Shown: positions 11,249 through 17,865, counted from the stretch's first letter. The stretch is DNA of 64,000 nt from Terriglobales bacterium (GCA_025451775.1 JANWJU010000157.1:635-64634); one strand, 5' to 3'. The notes: generated by a model from the letters alone, not told the origin. Made by a program: numbers and translations.

Positions 11249-11277
11249 TTGACATCGTCTCGCCTCAACTCTAAATC
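11249..11277 (+). promoter_or_regulatory. candidate sigma70-type promoter (TTGACA-17 nt-TAAATC)
   Basis: TTGACA at 11249-11254, a 17-nt spacer, then TAAATC at 11272-11277. It sits just upstream of the probable GTG start at 11291 of the lipoprotein gene, in one of the few AT-richer spacers. This is a pattern match only. Confidence 0.3.
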
Positions 11278-11290
11278 GACGTGCCCGGGT

Positions 11291-12157
11291 GTGTCCGCCA
11301 TCCGGTGGATCTTGGCGCTAGCCTTGGTGCTGATGGCGGCTTGCGGCGCACCCAGGCCAGTGCCCCACGCGCCCGCTCCCAAGCTCGAATCGGCTTCACT
11401 CGAGCAGCTCGTCACCACCTTCAACCGCAATGCAGCGGCGGTGCGCACCATGCAGCTCAAGCTCGAGCTGACCGCTCGGGCTGGCAAAAAGAAGTACGTC
11501 CGCATCAGCGCTTTTTTGCTCACCCAAAAGCCCTCCAGCATCCGCATCACCGGCAAGTTCCCCTTGCTGGGAACAATATTTGACATGGCCAGCGACGGCA
11601 GTGTCTTCGAGCTCAACATCCCGACCCAAGGGCAATTTCTCGAGGGGCGCAACGACGTGATCCCGGCGGTCACGCCCAACCCGCTCGAAAAGCTGCGCCC
11701 GCAAGTCGTGCTCAACGCACTGCTGATCAACCCCATACCGGATCAGGACCATGTCGCGCTCGATCCCTCCGCCGATCCGGCTGAGTACCAGGTTCTTGTC
11801 CTCTCCCCCGGCACGGATGGCATCGACCACATCGTGCGCCGCATCACCTTCAGCCGGTACGACCTCCTACCGCACGCCCAGGTGCTTTACGACGGTGACG
11901 GGGTGCACTCGACCGTTGCCACCTACTCCAACTTCAGCCTCGTCGACGGACTCCCGCTACCTATGGAGATGACCATTGATCGTCCGGTCGATGGCTACGC
12001 GCTGCGCCTGCAAGTGGTGAAAAACGGCACCCTCCTCAATCATCCATTCGTCCAAGCCGATCCCTTCCAATTGCAGCCGCCCGCGGGCAGCAAGGTCGTC
12101 AAGTTGAGTGCCAATCTCGGCGCTCAGCCCGCCGCCGATTCGACGGCGGCGCGGTAG
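11291..12157 (+). CDS. outer-membrane lipoprotein, LolA/LolB-fold (DUF4292-like) candidate
   Basis: The ORF-track start at 11249 is a TTG inside the promoter-like hexamer. The in-frame GTG at 11291 gives signal peptide VSAIRWILALALVLMAAC with a lipobox Cys. The mature part (...KKKYVRISAFLLTQKPSSIRITGKFPLLGTIFDMASDGSVFELNIP...) resembles lipoprotein-sorting-fold proteins, so the family call is tentative. Confidence 0.55.
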   Translation: MSAIRWILALALVLMAACGAPRPVPHAPAPKLESASLEQLVTTFNRNAAAVRTMQLKLELTARAGKKKYVRISAFLLTQKPSSIRITGKFPLLGTIFDMASDGSVFELNIPTQGQFLEGRNDVIPAVTPNPLEKLRPQVVLNALLINPIPDQDHVALDPSADPAEYQVLVLSPGTDGIDHIVRRITFSRYDLLPHAQVLYDGDGVHSTVATYSNFSLVDGLPLPMEMTIDRPVDGYALRLQVVKNGTLLNHPFVQADPFQLQPPAGSKVVKLSANLGAQPAADSTAAR

Positions 12158-13884
12158 CGCCGCCCCGCCCGCCAAAATCGGAAAGCCTCATCCGGCGCGA
12201 CTTGCGTCGCCGCAAAGGCACAGAACGCTGCGTGAAACGCACCGTACGCCAGGCGGTGCCAGGCTAGGCGTGGCGCCAGCGCGGCCGCGGTTTCGCCGCT
12301 GTGGCGGCAGTACGCGGCCACTACGGCGGCGCCCGGCGCCGACCCAAACTCCACAGCGATCCCCGCTAGATCCCAGGCGATATCGGCCGGACCGGGGAAG
12401 AAGGGATCGTCGCCGTGGTCGGCGCCGTCAAATTTCACCCATCCGCTCCGGGTGACTCCCCACTCGCAGCGCTGCAGGCGGGCATCGAGCGCCACCGGCA
12501 CCGCTTCCACCATGGGCGGAGGCCTCATCGTCCAGCGCAGCCGGCCTAAATTGATGGGCAGCATCTCGGCCAGCTCCGGGGTAGGCGGCACGGCGCCACC
12601 CAAGGCATACTCGGATCGTCGCCAGGCGAGGTAATTGCCTGCCCACTCCGCCCACGCCTGTCCCGGCCGCGCCGCGAGCCGGCGCACGCGGAGACAGCGG
12701 TACACCACCCAACCAGCGGCGGCGTCGGCGGCGCTGCCCACCACCTCCGGTCCCCAGCCAGCGCGCGCCAAACGCCGTGCCCGCTCCCAGGTGGCCACCC
12801 CATATGGGCCCACGCCGCCGAACTTGGTGAGGGTGCGGCCGCCGCCGGTAAGGTATTTGAGCCGCTCGTGGGTGCCCCATACCGGCGTGGTGACGCCGTG
12901 GCCGAGCCGCTGTCGCCAAACTCCGCCGTGCAGCGGCTCGCCATCAGGCGCCGTGAGCGGTTCCGCTGGATAGCAGCGCCAGCCCGTCCATTGGCGGGCG
13001 GCGATGGGTGAGCTGAGGCGGGCGGCCGCGGCTGCGTCCACCTCCCAACTGGGCAGCAGCACGATCCTCATCGGGCTTACGCCCAGTGATTGCAGCAGCA
13101 TCACCGTGCCGGCGAAACTGGACCCGCTGAGCCCCGGTCCTTCGTCCACGATCAAAAACGCGCCCGCCCACGCCTGCATCCGTCGCCGCAGCCGATCGGA
13201 GATGCGGATGACCCGGCTCTGGGGATCGCCTTGTGGCCGGAGCGTGGTACAACGATGAGCCACATCGCCGGATGGGGGCCGCAGCGCCGCCCACACCACC
13301 GGCGCCAGCGTGCTGCCCATGGTGCGCAACCCCAGCACCCAGGCGGGTGTGCCTTCCGCCGCCGCGGCCTGCCACCGCCGCGCCGCCACGGCGTAACCGT
13401 CCACGTTCAGGCTGTAGTAGCGCAATCCTTCAGGATCGCTACAGTGCAGCATCGCGCCACCGTCCTCCCAGGGACAGCCGCGGTCCGGAAGCAGCGCCTC
13501 TGTCCTCCTCTTCAGGTACCATTCCGCGGCAGCCTGGCTCCAGCGCACCGCCGCCTGCCGGCGCGGACTCTCATCGTCCACCCCTCCCGCTTGCGCTGAC
13601 CAGCGGTCACTGAGGCCGCACTCCAGCCGCGCGGCCGCCAGCAGCAGTCCGAGGCGGTCGCCACGCTGCTGCGCCGCCGTGCAGGCCGCCCACGCCGCGG
13701 CCACCGTCATCTCGCGCTGTGTGTGGCGGAATATATGCATTTCGAGGCTGAGATGCCCTCCGTGCACGCAGTAGCGGCTGCCAGCTCGGTCGAGTAGAAT
13801 GGGAGGGCTCGACATCTGGAGGTACTCCGTGGCGCTTGGCGGCAACGATTCCCGTTCTGAAAATTCCCACTTGGGCAAAACCAT
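12124..13884 (-). CDS. hypothetical protein; possible PRTase-like N-terminal half and protein-kinase-like/APH-like C-terminal half
   Basis: 586-aa ORF; the true start may be an internal Met at 13815 or 13740. AFLIVDEGPGLSGSSFAGTVMLL resembles the PRPP-binding loop of phosphoribosyltransferases. WVKFDGADHGDDPFFPGPADIAWDLAGIAVEF resembles the DFG/DLA region of aminoglycoside/choline-kinase-like phosphotransferases. Confidence 0.6.
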   Translation of the reverse strand: MVLPKWEFSERESLPPSATEYLQMSSPPILLDRAGSRYCVHGGHLSLEMHIFRHTQREMTVAAAWAACTAAQQRGDRLGLLLAAARLECGLSDRWSAQAGGVDDESPRRQAAVRWSQAAAEWYLKRRTEALLPDRGCPWEDGGAMLHCSDPEGLRYYSLNVDGYAVAARRWQAAAAEGTPAWVLGLRTMGSTLAPVVWAALRPPSGDVAHRCTTLRPQGDPQSRVIRISDRLRRRMQAWAGAFLIVDEGPGLSGSSFAGTVMLLQSLGVSPMRIVLLPSWEVDAAAAARLSSPIAARQWTGWRCYPAEPLTAPDGEPLHGGVWRQRLGHGVTTPVWGTHERLKYLTGGGRTLTKFGGVGPYGVATWERARRLARAGWGPEVVGSAADAAAGWVVYRCLRVRRLAARPGQAWAEWAGNYLAWRRSEYALGGAVPPTPELAEMLPINLGRLRWTMRPPPMVEAVPVALDARLQRCEWGVTRSGWVKFDGADHGDDPFFPGPADIAWDLAGIAVEFGSAPGAAVVAAYCRHSGETAAALAPRLAWHRLAYGAFHAAFCAFAATQVAPDEAFRFWRAGRRYRAAVESAAG

Positions 13885-14284
13885 TCACTTCAATGGCACG
13901 ATTACCGGTTCCGAAGATGTTTCTATCGACGGCGAGGTCGAGGGCACGATCGAACTCGGCGCTCACGTCGTCACCGTCGGGCCGCACGGCAACGTCGCCG
14001 CCAACGTCCAGGCCCGCGAGCTGATCGTGCACGGTAAGCTCAAAGGCAACGCTCAGGCGCGGGATCGAATCGAAGTAAGCCGCACCGGTTCGGTGCGGGG
14101 AGATCTCGCCATGGCCCGGATATCGATTGAAGATGGCGCGTTTATTCAAGGGCGGATCGACATCCGTGCCGCCAACGCTCCCGCACTTCCCGTGGTCGTG
14201 GGGGCAGCCGCGAGCGTGAGCTCGGGGCTCGCGCCGGCCACGGCCGCGCCGCCTCAACAGAGCTCGTTTTTGGACCAGAAATAG
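13829..14284 (+). CDS. bactofilin (polymer-forming cytoskeletal protein)
   Basis: The ORF track gives 13799..14284. The in-frame GTG at 13829 is preceded by GGAGG 7 nt upstream. The bactofilin beta-helix pattern is present: ...IHFNGTITGSEDVSIDGEVEGTIELGAHVVTVGPHGNVAANVQARELIVHGKLKGNAQARDRIEVSRTGSVRGDLAMARISIEDGAFIQGRIDI... Confidence 0.85.
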   Translation: MALGGNDSRSENSHLGKTIHFNGTITGSEDVSIDGEVEGTIELGAHVVTVGPHGNVAANVQARELIVHGKLKGNAQARDRIEVSRTGSVRGDLAMARISIEDGAFIQGRIDIRAANAPALPVVVGAAASVSSGLAPATAAPPQQSSFLDQK

Positions 14285-14323
14285 CGCGCGCGCAACCGGC
14301 AGCACTTCGCTTGGCTCGTCGTT

Positions 14324-14995
14324 ATGCTTACGAAAGTCCGTAGCCTGTTCCAGCCCGGCGCCCACACCGCCGCGGTGGGGACGCTAGCCGCGCCAGCGCA
14401 CGCGCCCGGCACCCTGCGGCACAGCAACGGCTTGCGCGACTTCCTCAACGGCTGGGACAAGGTGGAAGGCCGTCGCGTCCTCGATTTAGGCTGCACCTCC
14501 AGCGCCAACCTGAGCTTTTTCACCACCCACGGCCACAATATCCATAGCGACGACTTGCTCCACGAGACTGCCCAGCCGGTCTACTTTCACCCTCCCGCGG
14601 ACGACCCCGCCGCCCCCGCCGTCTTCGACGCGGACGCGTGGCTCGATGCCAACCTCGCCTTCCCCGACCAGCGCTTCGACGCCGTGCTGCTTTGGGATCT
14701 GGTCGACTACATGCCCGAGCCGTTGGTGCGCCCCCTGCTCGAACGCCTCACCTTGATTCTCAAGCCCGGCGGCACCATCCTTTCCTATTTCCACACTCGC
14801 GATGCCGGGGCCGAAGCGCCTTTTTTCCGCTACCACATCCATGATCGCGAAACCCTCGAGATGCGCGTCGCCGCCGCCTATCGCCTGCAGCGCATTTTCA
14901 ATAATCGCCACATCGAAAACCTCTTCCGCGGCTTCCGTTCCGTGAAGTTCTTCCTGGCGCGCGACAACTTGCGCGAAGTGCTCGCCACCAAGTAA
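14324..14995 (+). CDS. class I SAM-dependent methyltransferase
   Basis: 223 aa. Motif I-like sequence is RVLDLGCTSSANLSFF. A later stretch reads FDAVLLWDLVDYMPEPLVRPLLERLTLILKPGGTILSYFH. Confidence 0.75.
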   Translation: MLTKVRSLFQPGAHTAAVGTLAAPAHAPGTLRHSNGLRDFLNGWDKVEGRRVLDLGCTSSANLSFFTTHGHNIHSDDLLHETAQPVYFHPPADDPAAPAVFDADAWLDANLAFPDQRFDAVLLWDLVDYMPEPLVRPLLERLTLILKPGGTILSYFHTRDAGAEAPFFRYHIHDRETLEMRVAAAYRLQRIFNNRHIENLFRGFRSVKFFLARDNLREVLATK

Positions 14996-15606: not shown

Positions 15607-17865
15607 CTACTGCAGCTTTTGACCGGCGGCGGCACTTGAGGCCGCGGTACCGGGTGCCGGATGCAGCAGCTCGTGAATGATCTGCAGCATGGCTTGGGGG
15701 CTATACGGTTTGCGCAGAAAATCCACGCCCAGTTCGGTTGGCAAGCGCTCCGCCACCCCCATATAACCGGAGCTATAGAGCACGCGCAGTGCGGGGGTCC
15801 AATCCTTCAGGGCGGTTATGAGTTCACGTCCGCCCATCTTGGGCATGACCAGATCGGTGAAGACCAGATCAATCGGCGTGGCCGTTTCCTGCGCCAACCG
15901 CAATGCCTCGAGCCCGTTGGCGGCCTCGATCACGGCGTAGCCGGCCTCCTGCAACGCTTCCCGGGCCATGGCGCGCAGGCCGTCCTCATCTTCGACCAGC
16001 AAGATGAGCTCCGAACCTCCCGTGGGGTGCGGGCGCGTTGAGGAGGCGATCTCGACGGCGGCCGTGGTTTCGCTCTCACGAGCCGGCAGCAGCAGGCGAA
16101 AGCAGGAGCCCTGGCCCAGGGCGCTCTCGACGAGCAGGTGTCCGTCGGCTTGCTTGGCGATGCCGTAGATGGTGGCCAAGCCCAGCCCCGTGCCCTTGCC
16201 GGTTTCCTTGGTGGTGAAGAACGGCTCGAAGATGTGCTTTTGCGTCTCCGCGTCCATACCGGTCCCGGTGTCACGGAAGGCGAGCTCGACGTAGCGCCCG
16301 CTGGGCACACCGTCGCTGGCGGGCGGCGGCGCGGTGCCATCCAGGGTGAGGTTGGCGGTTGAGATCGTGTACTGGCCGCCATCCGGCATGGCATCGCGGG
16401 CGTTGGCGGCGAAGTTCATGACCACCTGCTCGAGGTGGGTGGGATCGATGCACGCGGCGGCGGCATCGGCGGCCAGATCCAAGCGGATCTCGATGGCCTC
16501 GCCCATCAAGACGGCGAGCATGTGCCGCATCGGCTCGATCACCGGGCCGAGCGCTAGGGCGCGCGCGCCCGCTGGCACCGGATGCTTGCGGCTGAAGGTG
16601 AGCAATTGCCGGGTAAGGGCGGCGGCGCGGTCGCCCGCTTTGATGATCTGCTGGACGTAGGCGCGGCAGCTGTCGCCGGGCGGCAGCTTGGCGAGCGTCA
16701 TCTCGCCGAAGCCGTTGATCACGGTGATGAGGTTGTTAAAGTCGTGAGCGACGCCGCCAGCGAGCTGGCCGATCGCTTCCAGGCGCGCGGCGCGCAAGAT
16801 GCGCTGCTGGGTATGATCGAGGGTCGACCGCATGCGCGCGAACGCCGCCGTGAGCTGCCCCGCCTCGTCGCCTCCAGCCGCGTGCAGCGGCGAGGAGTAA
16901 TCACCCTGCTCCATGGCGCCTACGCCGGTTACCAGTTCCGCGAGCGGGCGCGTGAAGGCGTGGGCGATGAGATACACCAGCCCGGCGCCGATGAGCAATG
17001 CCCCCAAGCCGACCAGCAGAATCAGCCGGTTCAGGGCGTGCAAAAACGCCATCACCGGCGTGAACGAGCGCAGCACCGTCAGCGTCGGAGCGACGCCGGC
17101 TCCGGGGCTGGCGGCGAGTGCTTCCGTAGCGGCGGCGAAGCGCTCCCCATTGAGCTCGACGCCGTTGCGCAAGCGGCGGCTCGCCGCCAGGCCCAGGCGC
17201 ACGAAATCCCGCTGCTGTGCCTCTGGCAGCGTGCTCACCACCGGCGTGCCGGCGTAGGCGAACACCACCTCGCCGCCCGCCGCGCGGCTGATCTGCTCCG
17301 CCAGCGTCTGATCGATGGGGCGGCCCAGCACCAGCGTGCCCACCCAGTTGCCGTCGGCCGGATCGCCGCGATAGATCGGGCGCAAAAACACCTGGAATAA
17401 ACGCCCGTCGGCGAACCACCAACCGCTGCCAGCGCCGCTCGCGAAGGTGGCGTTCAGCAGGCGGACGATGCTGCCGGCGTCGAGCCCGTCCCGGTACGGG
17501 TACCGGGCCAGCACGCGCCGGTTGCGGTCGGCGACCAGCAGCATCGTGCCCGGCACCAGCGTGCGGCTGATGTCGTCCACCGGCCCGGAGACGGTGAGGG
17601 CATCATCGGTGGTCATCGCGGCCTCCAGCGAGGGCACGGTGGCGGCCAAGGCGGCCGTGCTCTCCGCCAGGGCGTCGCTGCGGGCCTGCAGATTTTGAAA
17701 GGTGGCGAGCGAGCCTTGCACTTGGGCCGCGATCTGGCCCGAAATCTCGGCGTTCACCCGCAGTTGGACGATCGACAACGCCGCGCCGGTGAGCAGCGCC
17801 GATACCAACGCCATCGAGACGAACAGCTTGTTCCGCAGGCGGAGGTTATTCCAGCGAAGCATCAT
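15607..17865 (-). CDS. hybrid sensor histidine kinase/response regulator
   Basis: 752 aa. An N-terminal TM, a periplasmic sensor region, a second TM and a HAMP region come first. HisKA (...AGGVAHDFNNLITVING...) and HATPase_c (...DTGTGMDAETQKHIFEPFFTTKETGKGTGLGLATIYG...) follow. The C-terminal REC domain reads ...ILLVEDEDGLR...FTDLVMPKMGG... Confidence 0.93.
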   Translation of the reverse strand: MMLRWNNLRLRNKLFVSMALVSALLTGAALSIVQLRVNAEISGQIAAQVQGSLATFQNLQARSDALAESTAALAATVPSLEAAMTTDDALTVSGPVDDISRTLVPGTMLLVADRNRRVLARYPYRDGLDAGSIVRLLNATFASGAGSGWWFADGRLFQVFLRPIYRGDPADGNWVGTLVLGRPIDQTLAEQISRAAGGEVVFAYAGTPVVSTLPEAQQRDFVRLGLAASRRLRNGVELNGERFAAATEALAASPGAGVAPTLTVLRSFTPVMAFLHALNRLILLVGLGALLIGAGLVYLIAHAFTRPLAELVTGVGAMEQGDYSSPLHAAGGDEAGQLTAAFARMRSTLDHTQQRILRAARLEAIGQLAGGVAHDFNNLITVINGFGEMTLAKLPPGDSCRAYVQQIIKAGDRAAALTRQLLTFSRKHPVPAGARALALGPVIEPMRHMLAVLMGEAIEIRLDLAADAAAACIDPTHLEQVVMNFAANARDAMPDGGQYTISTANLTLDGTAPPPASDGVPSGRYVELAFRDTGTGMDAETQKHIFEPFFTTKETGKGTGLGLATIYGIAKQADGHLLVESALGQGSCFRLLLPARESETTAAVEIASSTRPHPTGGSELILLVEDEDGLRAMAREALQEAGYAVIEAANGLEALRLAQETATPIDLVFTDLVMPKMGGRELITALKDWTPALRVLYSSGYMGVAERLPTELGVDFLRKPYSPQAMLQIIHELLHPAPGTAASSAAAGQKLQ

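What the first reader, a model, noticed from the sequence alone, without database searches (positions are those of the whole stretch)
12124..13884. 586-aa orphan protein combining a PRTase-like loop with a kinase-like C-terminal half
Seen: there are no TM segments and no signal peptide. The mid-region reads VLGLRTMGSTLAPVVWAAL...AFLIVDEGPGLSGSSFAGTVMLLQSLGV..RIVLL. This is the hydrophobic-strand, acidic pair and small-residue loop pattern of the type I phosphoribosyltransferase PRPP loop.

The C-terminal ~250 aa has ...LTKFGGVGPYG...ERARRLARAGWGPEVVG... It also has ...LDARLQRCEWGVTRSGWVKFDGADHGDDPFFPGPADIAWDLAGIAVEF. These are reminiscent of N-lobe and DFG/DLA motifs of APH/choline-kinase-like phosphotransferases, but the canonical HxDxxxxN is replaced.

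The 3' end overlaps the convergent lipoprotein gene by 34 nt. The 5' end faces bactofilin.

Inference: this is a previously uncharacterised two-domain nucleotide or small-molecule-modifying enzyme, possibly a pseudokinase.
Basis: partly seen in the sequence, partly recalled or inferred. Interest (0 to 1): 0.55.

Follow-up and report, generated by a model that had tools for sequence, protein, structure and literature searches.

The report
Uncharacterised PRTase-like plus sugar-kinase-like enzyme
This gene encodes a real, well-conserved cytoplasmic protein that joins a phosphoribosyltransferase-like domain to a choline-kinase/maltokinase-like domain; it belongs to a large bacterial family that no database describes, and its neighbours in other genomes suggest it activates a sugar for glycan synthesis.

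Summary
It is not an orphan. An exhaustive search finds 1688 clusters (50% identity) of relatives, and at least 584 loci in species-representative genomes across about seven phyla.

Homologs start at the internal Met51, so the gene is most likely 12124..13734 (536 aa).

No Pfam, NCBIfam, PADLOC or PDB-sequence model matches. AlphaFold2 models are very confident (pLDDT 95, pTM 0.93). Foldseek places residues ~95-262 with type I PRTases (APRT, HGPRT). It places the C-terminal half with maltokinase, choline kinases and APH/Mph enzymes.

About 25 residues are invariant, including the loop VDEGPGLSGSS, K293, D417, D436 and the choline-kinase motif WD455LAxxxxE462. A pseudokinase is therefore unlikely, even though HxDxxxxN is absent in all 109 aligned members.

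In other phyla the gene sits in glycan clusters. It is translationally coupled to a sugar-1-P nucleotidyltransferase and is fused or adjacent to HAD-IIIA (GmhB-like) phosphatases.

Best reading (inferred, not shown): an ATP-dependent sugar or phosphosugar kinase whose PRTase-like domain binds a PRPP-like phosphosugar. The main rival is a true PRPP-dependent ribosyltransferase. This is a new architecture built from known folds, and it is moderately interesting.

The parts
12124..13734 (-). Revised gene: 536-aa two-domain protein (family 'T'), including the stop codon at 12124-12126.
   Evidence: ORF. Homolog N-termini align on Met51. Gene calls of 535-537 aa in relatives. GC3 0.80. AF2 pLDDT 95.1, pTM 0.93.
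13735..13884 (-). The 50 upstream codons of the 586-aa reading. Probably not translated. 13735-13798 is the 64-bp divergent spacer to the bactofilin gene.
   Evidence: Absent from almost all homologs. GC3 0.68 and GC 0.58. Would overlap the bactofilin ATG at 13799.
13453..13734 (-). N-terminal strand plus three long helices (residues 1-94 of the 536-aa protein). Candidate 'hood' over the PRTase-like site. Conserved E38 and D43 ('LECxLAD').
   Evidence: DSSP of the models. Conservation table. The hood role is inference.
12949..13452 (-). Type-I-PRTase-like alpha/beta domain (residues ~95-262). Invariant or near-invariant: E102, G103, G135-x-R137-xx-G140, R166-P167, R174.
   Evidence: Foldseek of the N-terminal half: APRT 5znq E 4e-4, HGPRT, PyrR and PurR; all of the top ~40 hits are PRTases. 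1dqn hit with the full model. Invariant columns.
13114..13149 (-). PRPP-loop-like motif V196-D-E-G-P-G-L-S-G-S-S-F207 (V246-F257 in 586-aa numbering). D197-G201 and S203-S205 are 100% invariant; V196, L202 and S206 are 96-99% and F207 88%.
   Evidence: Strict PROSITE PS00103 is not matched (0/109). The relaxed pattern (acid pair, 3-4 residues, [ST]G.[ST]) is matched.
12127..12948 (-). ChoK/APH/maltokinase-like kinase domain (residues 263-536).
   Evidence: Foldseek: 4u94/4o7o maltokinase, 3feg/3dxq/4r77 choline kinases, Mph and APH enzymes, 2ppq.
12856..12930 (-). Nucleotide-loop-like segment [SG][GA]G271-x-W273-R274, then E290-R291-x-K293. K293 is the candidate ATP-binding lysine.
   Evidence: Column counts. 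Strand assignment. Functional equivalence is inference.
12349..12486 (-). Catalytic segment: D417-G-R-x-x-x-x-E424-W425 (replaces HxDxxxxN), beta-hairpin, K434-x-D436 (Mg-Asp position), insert H440-GDD-HFFPG, D451-I-A-W454-D455-L-A-x4-E462 (choline-kinase motif).
   Evidence: LicA alignment. NPTII alignment. Secondary structure.
12124..12157 (.). 34-nt convergent overlap of the 3' ends of this gene and the lipoprotein gene.
   Evidence: The same overlap is seen in relatives: 34 nt in L087 and 44 nt in L086.
11249..12157 (+). Convergent neighbour: LolB/DUF4292-like lipoprotein, the last gene after rpsD-rpoA-rplQ.
   Evidence: Weak NF053559 LolB1 (1.4e-5) and PF14125 hits. Synteny in L086 and L087.
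13799..14995 (+). Divergent neighbour pair: bactofilin (13799-14284) and a class I SAM methyltransferase (14324-14995). These are the conserved partners in the window-type context.
   Evidence: Pfam. The methyltransferase is present in 8 of 9 window-type loci. L086 and L087.

Best explanation
The gene encodes a soluble cytoplasmic enzyme from a large bacterial family that has not been described.

Shown: it has an N-terminal helical cap, a type-I-PRTase-like domain with an intact PRPP-type site (vicinal D-E pair, phosphate loop, three invariant arginines), and a choline-kinase/APH/maltokinase-like kinase domain. The domains are rigidly joined. The kinase domain keeps the lysine, the catalytic-loop Asp, the Mg-Asp and the choline-kinase motif.

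Inferred mechanism: the kinase domain transfers the gamma-phosphate of ATP to a sugar hydroxyl, most likely the anomeric one, as maltokinase, AmgK, NahK and MtnK do in this fold. The PRTase-like domain holds the substrate through a distal phosphate, for example ribose-5-phosphate or another phosphosugar.

The resulting bisphosphate would be trimmed by a partner phosphatase. That partner is a HAD-IIIA (GmhB-like) domain when fused or adjacent; elsewhere it is a histidine or DSP phosphatase. The sugar-1-phosphate would then be converted by a partner nucleotidyltransferase into an NDP-sugar for glycosyltransferases.

In this window's lineage the gene stands alone beside the ribosomal alpha operon, so its partners, if any, are encoded elsewhere.
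For: Folds:
- AF2 pLDDT 95.1, pTM 0.93.
- The kinase half matches maltokinase 4u94 (E 2e-5), choline kinases and APH/Mph enzymes.
- The N-terminal half matches only PRTases.

Catalytic residues invariant in 109 sequences: D197, E198, G199, P200, G201, S203, G204, S205, R166, R174, K293, D417, D436, H440, W454, D455, E462. The ChoK motif aligns to LicA and NPTII.

Context:
- Two HAD-IIIA C-terminal fusions, P0077 and P0143, score above the TIGR01662 cut-off and are nearest to GmhB.
- A small HAD gene lies within 8 kb in 6 loci, directly downstream in 5.
- In one operon, NTP_transferase, the T-HAD fusion and c2 have overlapping stop and start codons.
- A sugar-1-P nucleotidyltransferase lies within 8 kb in 15 of 81 loci, together with GT4, Glyco_trans_1_2, PIG-L, GNAT and a TIGR04290 methyltransferase. 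These loci span Acidobacteriota, Gemmatimonadota, Chloroflexota, Myxococcota, Nitrospirota, delta- and alpha-proteobacteria.
- In Phenylobacterium a DSP phosphatase sits directly upstream.

The kinase / HAD-IIIA phosphatase / nucleotidyltransferase logic is established for NDP-heptose (HldE or HddA, GmhB, HddC) and for UDP-MurNAc recycling (MupP, AmgK, MurU). This rests on my own knowledge.
Against: - No substrate was identified and no coordinates were available, so it is unknown whether the PRTase-like pocket faces the kinase active site.
- The Brenner motif HxDxxxxN is absent (0/109). No conserved alphaC glutamate was found.
- My residue equivalences for K293, D417 and D436 rest on motif spacing and secondary structure, not on a superposition.
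- An intact PRPP-type site with three invariant arginines fits a real PRPP-using transferase equally well.
- The glycan-cluster context is seen in only about a third of the sampled loci and not in this window. Here and in close relatives the neighbours are a lipoprotein, bactofilin and a methyltransferase. In Koribacter-type genomes the neighbour is an SH3 lipoprotein.
- Many loci have uninformative neighbours.
Confidence: 0.4

Rival explanations
1. It is a genuine PRPP-dependent phosphoribosyltransferase. [quoted passage not shown] A partner phosphatase would remove the 5-phosphate. This is the logic of gPRT-PRP ribofuranosyltransferases, Hib Bcs3 CriT/CrpP and butirosin BtrL/BtrP. The kinase domain would carry out a separate phosphorylation of the acceptor or product.
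For: - The PRPP-type site is fully invariant: vicinal D197-E198, the S-G-S-S phosphate loop, and R137, R166, R174.
- The fold matches catalytic PRTases.
- Phosphatases are repeatedly fused or adjacent.
- The literature gives a precedent for a PRTase-like domain paired with a HAD phosphatase in glycan ribofuranosylation (PMC11127046; PMC10299916).
- MshA/BtrM-like GT4 and MshB/BtrD-like PIG-L neighbours, plus an inositol-1-P synthase in one locus, fit pseudo-oligosaccharide chemistry.
Against: - The strict PRTase signature and Pfam PF00156 are not matched.
- Measured against my recalled E. coli/human APRT sequences (own knowledge), the stretch between the RPxGxP loop and the PRPP loop is about 9 residues shorter and lacks the catalytic 'LEYG' hairpin (sequence reading only).
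- Neither Bcs3 nor the gPRT structure is among the top 50 fold hits.
- This model does not explain the tight coupling to a sugar-1-P nucleotidyltransferase, nor why a kinase domain is always fused.
Confidence: 0.27
2. It is a non-catalytic or regulatory protein. The PRTase-like domain would sense a nucleotide or PRPP-type ligand, as in PurR or PyrR. The kinase-like half would be a pseudokinase scaffold or would act on a protein.
For: - HxDxxxxN is absent in every member and there is no conserved alphaC Glu.
- PurR and PyrR are among the fold hits.
- In the window lineage the gene is not in a metabolic operon.
Against: - K293, D417, D436, H440, D455 and E462 are invariant across phyla, which is the pattern of an active site rather than a degraded one.
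- There is no DNA- or RNA-binding domain.
- Fold hits are small-molecule kinases, not protein kinases.
- The gene is embedded in biosynthetic operons and fused to a phosphatase in other phyla.
Confidence: 0.1
3. It is an antibiotic or xenobiotic-modifying phosphotransferase (APH/Mph-like resistance enzyme) carrying an accessory domain.
For: Macrolide and aminoglycoside phosphotransferases are among the fold hits.
Against: - They rank below maltokinase and the choline kinases.
- There is no APH Pfam or NCBIfam hit.
- In the window lineage the gene has conserved chromosomal synteny next to the ribosomal operon, and elsewhere it sits in glycan clusters, not in mobile or resistance contexts.
Confidence: 0.04

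Closest known systems
Maltokinase Mak/Pep2 (PDB 4u94, 4o7o) and other anomeric sugar kinases of the ChoK/APH fold (AmgK, NahK, MtnK)
   Same: Best structural match to the C-terminal half (E 2e-5). It is a bilobal small-molecule kinase fold with an extra N-terminal domain. Like AmgK with MurU, the family gene is often next to a sugar-1-P nucleotidyltransferase.
   Different: No detectable sequence similarity. HxDxxxxN is replaced by DGRxxxxEW. There is a 7-residue H-GDD-HFFPG insert after the Mg-Asp. The N-terminal domain is PRTase-like rather than the Mak cap.
Choline/ethanolamine kinases (LicA 4r77, human ChoK, 3dxq)
   Same: Same fold. This is the only sequence-level signal: the choline-kinase motif W-D-L-A-x4-E aligns with LicA 'DPMWDLAALFLESEF'.
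   Different: E-value of only 0.75 at sequence level. No Pfam PF01633 or PF01636 hit. The catalytic loop differs.
Type I phosphoribosyltransferases (APRT, HGPRT; PyrR and PurR as regulatory members)
   Same: The alpha/beta core fold is the top structural match for residues ~95-262. Shared features are the hydrophobic strand, acidic pair and phosphate loop, and an 'RPxGxP' segment that resembles the APRT 'RKxGKLP' loop (sequence reading).
   Different: PS00103 is not matched (E instead of the second D, and Gly-Pro-Gly after it). There is no Pfam hit. The hairpin is shorter. The cap is a large helical N-terminal region. It is fused to a kinase.
PRPP-dependent glycan ribofuranosyltransferases (gPRT-PRP; Hib Bcs3 CriT-CrpP)
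   Same: A PRTase-like domain works with a HAD-family phosphatase inside glycan biosynthesis clusters (PMC11127046, PMC10299916). Some members of this family are fused to or adjacent to HAD phosphatases.
   Different: CriT splits the acidic pair over two loops and has three helical bundles; here the vicinal pair is kept. The HAD here is subfamily IIIA (GmhB-like) and is fused only rarely. These structures are not among the top 50 fold hits. A kinase domain is always present here.
NDP-heptose pathway (HldE/HddA kinase, GmhB HAD-IIIA phosphatase, HddC/HldE nucleotidyltransferase)
   Same: The same three-activity logic is found in the family's gene clusters: kinase, HAD-IIIA phosphatase nearest to GmhB, and sugar-1-P nucleotidyltransferase.
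   Different: The kinases there are ribokinase-like or GHMP folds, not ChoK/APH-like, and no PRTase-like domain is involved. This is an analogy of pathway logic only.

Membership tests
Type I phosphoribosyltransferase superfamily | Five-stranded parallel alpha/beta PRT core fold | tested here: met
   The Foldseek top ~40 hits for the N-terminal half are all PRTases. The full model hits 1dqn.
Type I phosphoribosyltransferase superfamily | PRPP-binding signature (PROSITE PS00103) or a Pfam PF00156 match | tested here: not met
   PS00103 regex matches 0 of 109. No Pfam hit at E<=1 for any of 39 members.
Type I phosphoribosyltransferase superfamily | Vicinal acidic pair after a hydrophobic strand, followed by a small-residue phosphate-binding loop | tested here: met
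   FLIV-D197-E198-GPGL-S-G-S-S; D197-G201 and S203-S205 are invariant in 109 sequences, the flanking residues 88-99%.
Type I phosphoribosyltransferase superfamily | PRPP-dependent ribosyl-phosphate transfer with PPi release | not testable with these tools
   Requires an enzyme assay.
ChoK/APH-type small-molecule kinases (protein-kinase-like clan) | Bilobal kinase-like fold | tested here: met
   37 PDB hits at E<=1e-3, nearly all maltokinase, choline kinase, Mph or APH enzymes.
ChoK/APH-type small-molecule kinases (protein-kinase-like clan) | Brenner catalytic motif HxDxxxxN | tested here: not met
   0 of 109 members contain it. An invariant D417 sits at the equivalent place, with E424-W425 seven residues on.
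ChoK/APH-type small-molecule kinases (protein-kinase-like clan) | Mg-binding Asp after a beta-hairpin, and an ATP-binding Lys in the N-lobe | tested here: inconclusive
   D436 (19 residues after D417, after strands 425-428 and 431-434) and K293 are invariant. Equivalence is inferred from spacing, not from a superposition.
ChoK/APH-type small-molecule kinases (protein-kinase-like clan) | Choline-kinase/APH motif ...[FYW]-D-[ILV]-[AG]-x4-E | tested here: met
   W454-D455-L-A-x4-E462 is invariant. It aligns to LicA and to NPTII 'QDIALATRDIAEE' (weak E-values).
ChoK/APH-type small-molecule kinases (protein-kinase-like clan) | Pfam PF01636 / PF01633 or NCBIfam model match | tested here: not met
   No hit.
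gPRT-PRP / Bcs3 CriT-CrpP ribofuranosyltransferases | PRTase-like domain coupled to a HAD phosphoribose phosphatase | tested here: inconclusive
   HAD-IIIA is fused in P0077 and P0143 and a small HAD gene is nearby in 6 of 81 loci. It is absent in this window and in most loci.
gPRT-PRP / Bcs3 CriT-CrpP ribofuranosyltransferases | CriT-type active site (acidic residues on two separate loops, helical bundles) and closest structural similarity to those enzymes | tested here: not met
   The vicinal D-E pair is retained. The top 50 fold hits are classical PRTases, not Bcs3 or gPRT. CriT description from PMC10299916.
Pseudokinases | Loss or non-conservation of catalytic Lys/Asp residues | tested here: not met
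   K293, D417 and D436 are 100% conserved.
Anti-phage defence proteins (PADLOC) | Match to a defence-system model | tested here: not met
   No hit for four diverse members.

The most novel reading that the evidence does not exclude
The family is a previously unrecognised bifunctional enzyme class in which a PRTase-type phosphoribosyl site and a ChoK/APH-type kinase site act on one substrate. For example, it could make ribose-1,5-bisphosphate or an O-phosphoribosylated, phosphorylated sugar or cyclitol. This would open an undescribed route to a new NDP-sugar or ribosylated glycoside, used by a multi-phylum glycan cluster (TIGR04290 methyltransferase, Glyco_trans_1_2 and GT4 glycosyltransferases, PIG-L) in soil bacteria.
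Probability: 0.3. Interest if true: 0.7.

Novelty: new variant of a known kind. Interest (0 to 1): 0.5.

Why it matters
Acidobacteriota and the other phyla that carry this gene are dominant soil bacteria, and they are hard to study.

A family with more than 1600 sequence clusters, an invariant double active site and no database model is a clear gap in annotation. Defining it would allow hundreds of 'hypothetical proteins' to be named.

It could also uncover a new way of activating a sugar for glycan or small-glycoside synthesis. It gives a concrete biochemical entry point, through the natural fusion to a phosphatase and the coupled nucleotidyltransferase, into an uncharacterised glycan gene cluster that is conserved across several phyla.

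Tried and rejected
- Pfam, NCBIfam and PADLOC scans of the protein and of 39 family members found no family.
- phmmer and profile searches against PDB sequences found nothing significant. The only pointer was a LicA hit at E 0.75.
Residue mapping therefore could not be made rigorous.
- Literature searches for TIGR04290, for PRTase-kinase fusions and for BtrL returned nothing relevant.
- tblastn of the glycan-cluster genes against the 64-kb window found none. The operon-based inference therefore does not come from this genome.
- The window methyltransferase is not related to the TIGR04290 methyltransferase of the glycan clusters.
- The mycobacterial methylmannose-polysaccharide cluster was considered as a model for the neighbouring genes. 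It is only a loose analogy and was not pursued.
- The sigma-70 promoter and terminator scan found no sites.
- Foreign origin was rejected. The high GC (0.71) comes from codon positions 1 and 2 of an Ala/Arg/Gly-rich protein, and GC3 equals that of the neighbours.
- A spurious ORF was rejected on conservation.
- Neighbours in the isolates Sorangium So ce56 and Thermithiobacillus were uninformative.
Full report
**Observation**

The 586-aa ORF at 12124..13884 (-) is real. All six quoted peptide segments are at residues 183-513 of it. No 19-residue window exceeds KD 1.54, so there is no TM segment.

The 3' end overlaps the convergent lipoprotein ORF (11249..12157) by 34 nt. The 5' end faces a bactofilin gene (Pfam E 3e-24).

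Two corrections are needed.

- The start codon. Dozens of homologs begin at the position of Met51 ('MHIFRH', consensus MxVFR). Gene callers in relatives of 53% and 87% identity chose 535-537 aa. The 150 upstream nt have GC3 0.68 against 0.80 for the rest. The long form would also overlap the bactofilin ATG at 13799. The gene is therefore most likely 12124..13734 (536 aa), with a 64-bp divergent spacer.
- It is not an orphan. See the next section.

**Family**

- The indexed search gave 153 relatives, from 92% down to ~30% identity and 500-600 aa long. None has a Pfam domain and almost all are called 'hypothetical'.
- The exhaustive HMMER search of 1.84 billion representatives gave 1688 proteins at E<=1e-3 and 1338 at E<=1e-10.
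- A scan of species-representative genomes gave at least 584 loci. Most are Acidobacteriota. Others are Gemmatimonadales, Limnocylindrales, Manganitrophaceae, Syntrophaceae/'Deltaproteobacteria', Sorangium cellulosum, Phenylobacterium/Caulobacteraceae, Thermithiobacillus and other Gammaproteobacteria.
- No Pfam, NCBIfam or PADLOC model and no PDB sequence matches the protein or its relatives. Literature searches found no description.

**Structure**

With a 109-sequence alignment, AlphaFold2 gives pLDDT 95.1 and pTM 0.93 for the 536-aa protein. This implies a rigid two-domain body.

Foldseek against the PDB gives these hits for the full model:
- maltokinase (4u94, 4o7o) as the top hit;
- choline kinases (3feg, 3dxq, LicA 4r77);
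- macrolide and aminoglycoside phosphotransferases and homoserine kinase;
- one PRTase (1dqn).

Residues 1-265 modelled alone (pLDDT 93.6) hit only type I PRTases and their regulatory relatives (APRT, HGPRT, PyrR, PurR).

At sequence level the relationship is almost invisible.

**Conserved residues (536-aa numbering; add 50 for the 586-aa ORF)**

Invariant or nearly invariant in 109 sequences:

- PRTase-like part: E102-G103, G135-x-R137-xx-G140, R166-P167-x-G-x-P-xx-R174, and V196-D-E-G-P-G-L-S-G-S-S-F207.
- Kinase part: [SG][GA]G271-x-W273-R274, E290-R291-x-K293, F305-x-G307, N395, D417-G-R-xxxx-E424-W425, K434-x-D436-xxx-H440-GDD-HFFPG-x-D451-I-A-W454-D455-L-A-xxxx-E462.

The strict PRTase signature PS00103 and the Brenner motif HxDxxxxN are absent from all 109 members.

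The topology around the catalytic site still matches the ChoK/APH core (combined with established knowledge of that family). The order is: invariant Asp, about 7 residues, beta-hairpin, invariant Asp, then W-D-L-A-x4-E. Invariance of these residues across phyla argues for an active enzyme and against a pseudokinase. The residue equivalences are inferred, not superposed.

**Genomic context: three patterns**

- (A) Window type. The order is ribosomal alpha operon (rpsD-rpoA-rplQ), LolB-like lipoprotein, this gene (convergent, overlapping by 34-44 nt), then a divergent bactofilin and class I methyltransferase. This is conserved down to 53% identity.
- (B) Koribacter/Angelobacter type. An SH3_3 lipoprotein lies upstream on the same strand (22 loci).
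- (C) A glycan or sugar-nucleotide cluster in about 25 loci from about seven phyla. It contains:
  - a sugar-1-P nucleotidyltransferase (15 loci);
  - Glyco_trans_1_2 glycosyltransferases (16 loci);
  - a PslG-like putative glycosidase, 'c2' (18 loci);
  - an MshA/BshA-like GT4 and an MshB/BshB-like PIG-L deacetylase;
  - an Acetyltransf_6 GNAT;
  - a full-score TIGR04290 methyltransferase;
  - histidine phosphatases and a small HAD gene.

The most telling observations are these:

- Two family members carry a C-terminal HAD-IIIA domain. It scores above the TIGR01662 cut-off and is nearest to GmhB heptose-1,7-bisphosphate 7-phosphatase.
- One of them lies in an operon with overlapping stop and start codons: nucleotidyltransferase, T-HAD, c2.
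- In Phenylobacterium, a DSP-type phosphatase lies 4 nt upstream, after c2 and an inositol-1-phosphate synthase.

None of these partner genes is present in the 64-kb window.

**Mechanism**

Shown: the two folds, the invariant site residues, and the recurrent linkage to phosphatases and a nucleotidyltransferase.

Inferred: the kinase domain phosphorylates a sugar hydroxyl, probably the anomeric one. The best fold match (maltokinase) and several members of this fold (AmgK, NahK, MtnK) are anomeric kinases (own knowledge). The PRTase-like domain binds the substrate's distal phosphate in its PRPP-type loop. A GmhB-like or other phosphatase and a nucleotidyltransferase then yield an NDP-sugar. This follows the logic of the NDP-heptose and AmgK/MupP/MurU pathways (own knowledge). 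I give this about 0.4.

The main rival, at about 0.27, is that the PRTase-like domain is a true PRPP-dependent ribosyltransferase working with the phosphatase. That is how gPRT-PRP enzymes and Bcs3 CriT/CrpP work (PMC11127046, PMC10299916). The kinase would then be a second activity.

Regulatory or pseudokinase readings and resistance-enzyme readings are less likely. A spurious ORF is excluded.

**Comparison and novelty**

The protein works like, and folds like, members of two known superfamilies. It fails the sequence signatures of both, is covered by no model, and combines them in an architecture I could not find described.

I classify it as a new variant of known kinds: a new family and architecture, not a new fold or principle.

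Interest is moderate (0.5). The family is widespread, clearly enzymatic and unannotated, and it offers a testable route into an uncharacterised glycan pathway. The function, however, remains inferred, and in this particular window there is no operon context.

Noticed in passing
window 12124-12157; L086 11565-11608; L087 9994-10027: The convergent 3' overlap between this gene and the LolB-like lipoprotein gene (34-44 nt) is kept in relatives as distant as 53% protein identity. No terminator-like hairpin was found in the window.
   Followed up: partly
window 11249-12157 (+): A 302-aa lipoprotein (lipobox LMAAC|G) with weak LolB1 and DUF4292 similarity sits directly after rplQ at the end of the ribosomal alpha operon. 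This position is conserved in relatives.
   Followed up: partly
window 13799-14995 (+): A bactofilin gene followed 40 nt later by a class I SAM methyltransferase. The pair is conserved divergently from the target in 8 of 9 window-type loci. The methyltransferase has no NCBIfam subfamily and is unrelated to TIGR04290.
   Followed up: partly
L083 382-15821; also L029, L030, L046, L052, L062, L076: An uncharacterised multi-phylum gene cluster. It has 3-4 Glyco_trans_1_2 glycosyltransferases, a GT4, a TIGR04290 methyltransferase, a divergent sugar-1-P nucleotidyltransferase, a PslG-like protein, PIG-L, GNAT, His_Phos_1 and NDP-sugar epimerases/dehydratases. Its product is unknown.
   Followed up: partly
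L054 4537-9461 (Phenylobacterium sp. J426): A compact row of myo-inositol-1-phosphate synthase, c2 (PslG-like), a DSP/PTP-type phosphatase and the family gene. This hints at a cyclitol-containing product.
   Followed up: no
L024 6193-9398 (Manganitrophaceae): A nicotinate phosphoribosyltransferase gene lies directly upstream of the family gene on the same strand. It may be a coincidence or a PRPP-related link.
   Followed up: no
P0200 (844 aa): This family member has a ~310-aa N-terminal extension with no Pfam match. P0039, P0125 and P0229 are also longer than usual and have no recognisable extra domain.
   Followed up: partly
window 15607-17865 (-): A 752-aa hybrid histidine kinase (HAMP, HisKA, HATPase, receiver) lies downstream of the methyltransferase. 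It is also present in the 87%-identity relative L087.
   Followed up: no
window 12000-13500: GC rises to 0.71 over the target gene against 0.60-0.65 in the flanks. This is explained by Ala/Arg/Gly-rich codon positions 1 and 2, with normal GC3. Many long shadow ORFs on other frames here are artefacts of the high GC.
   Followed up: yes
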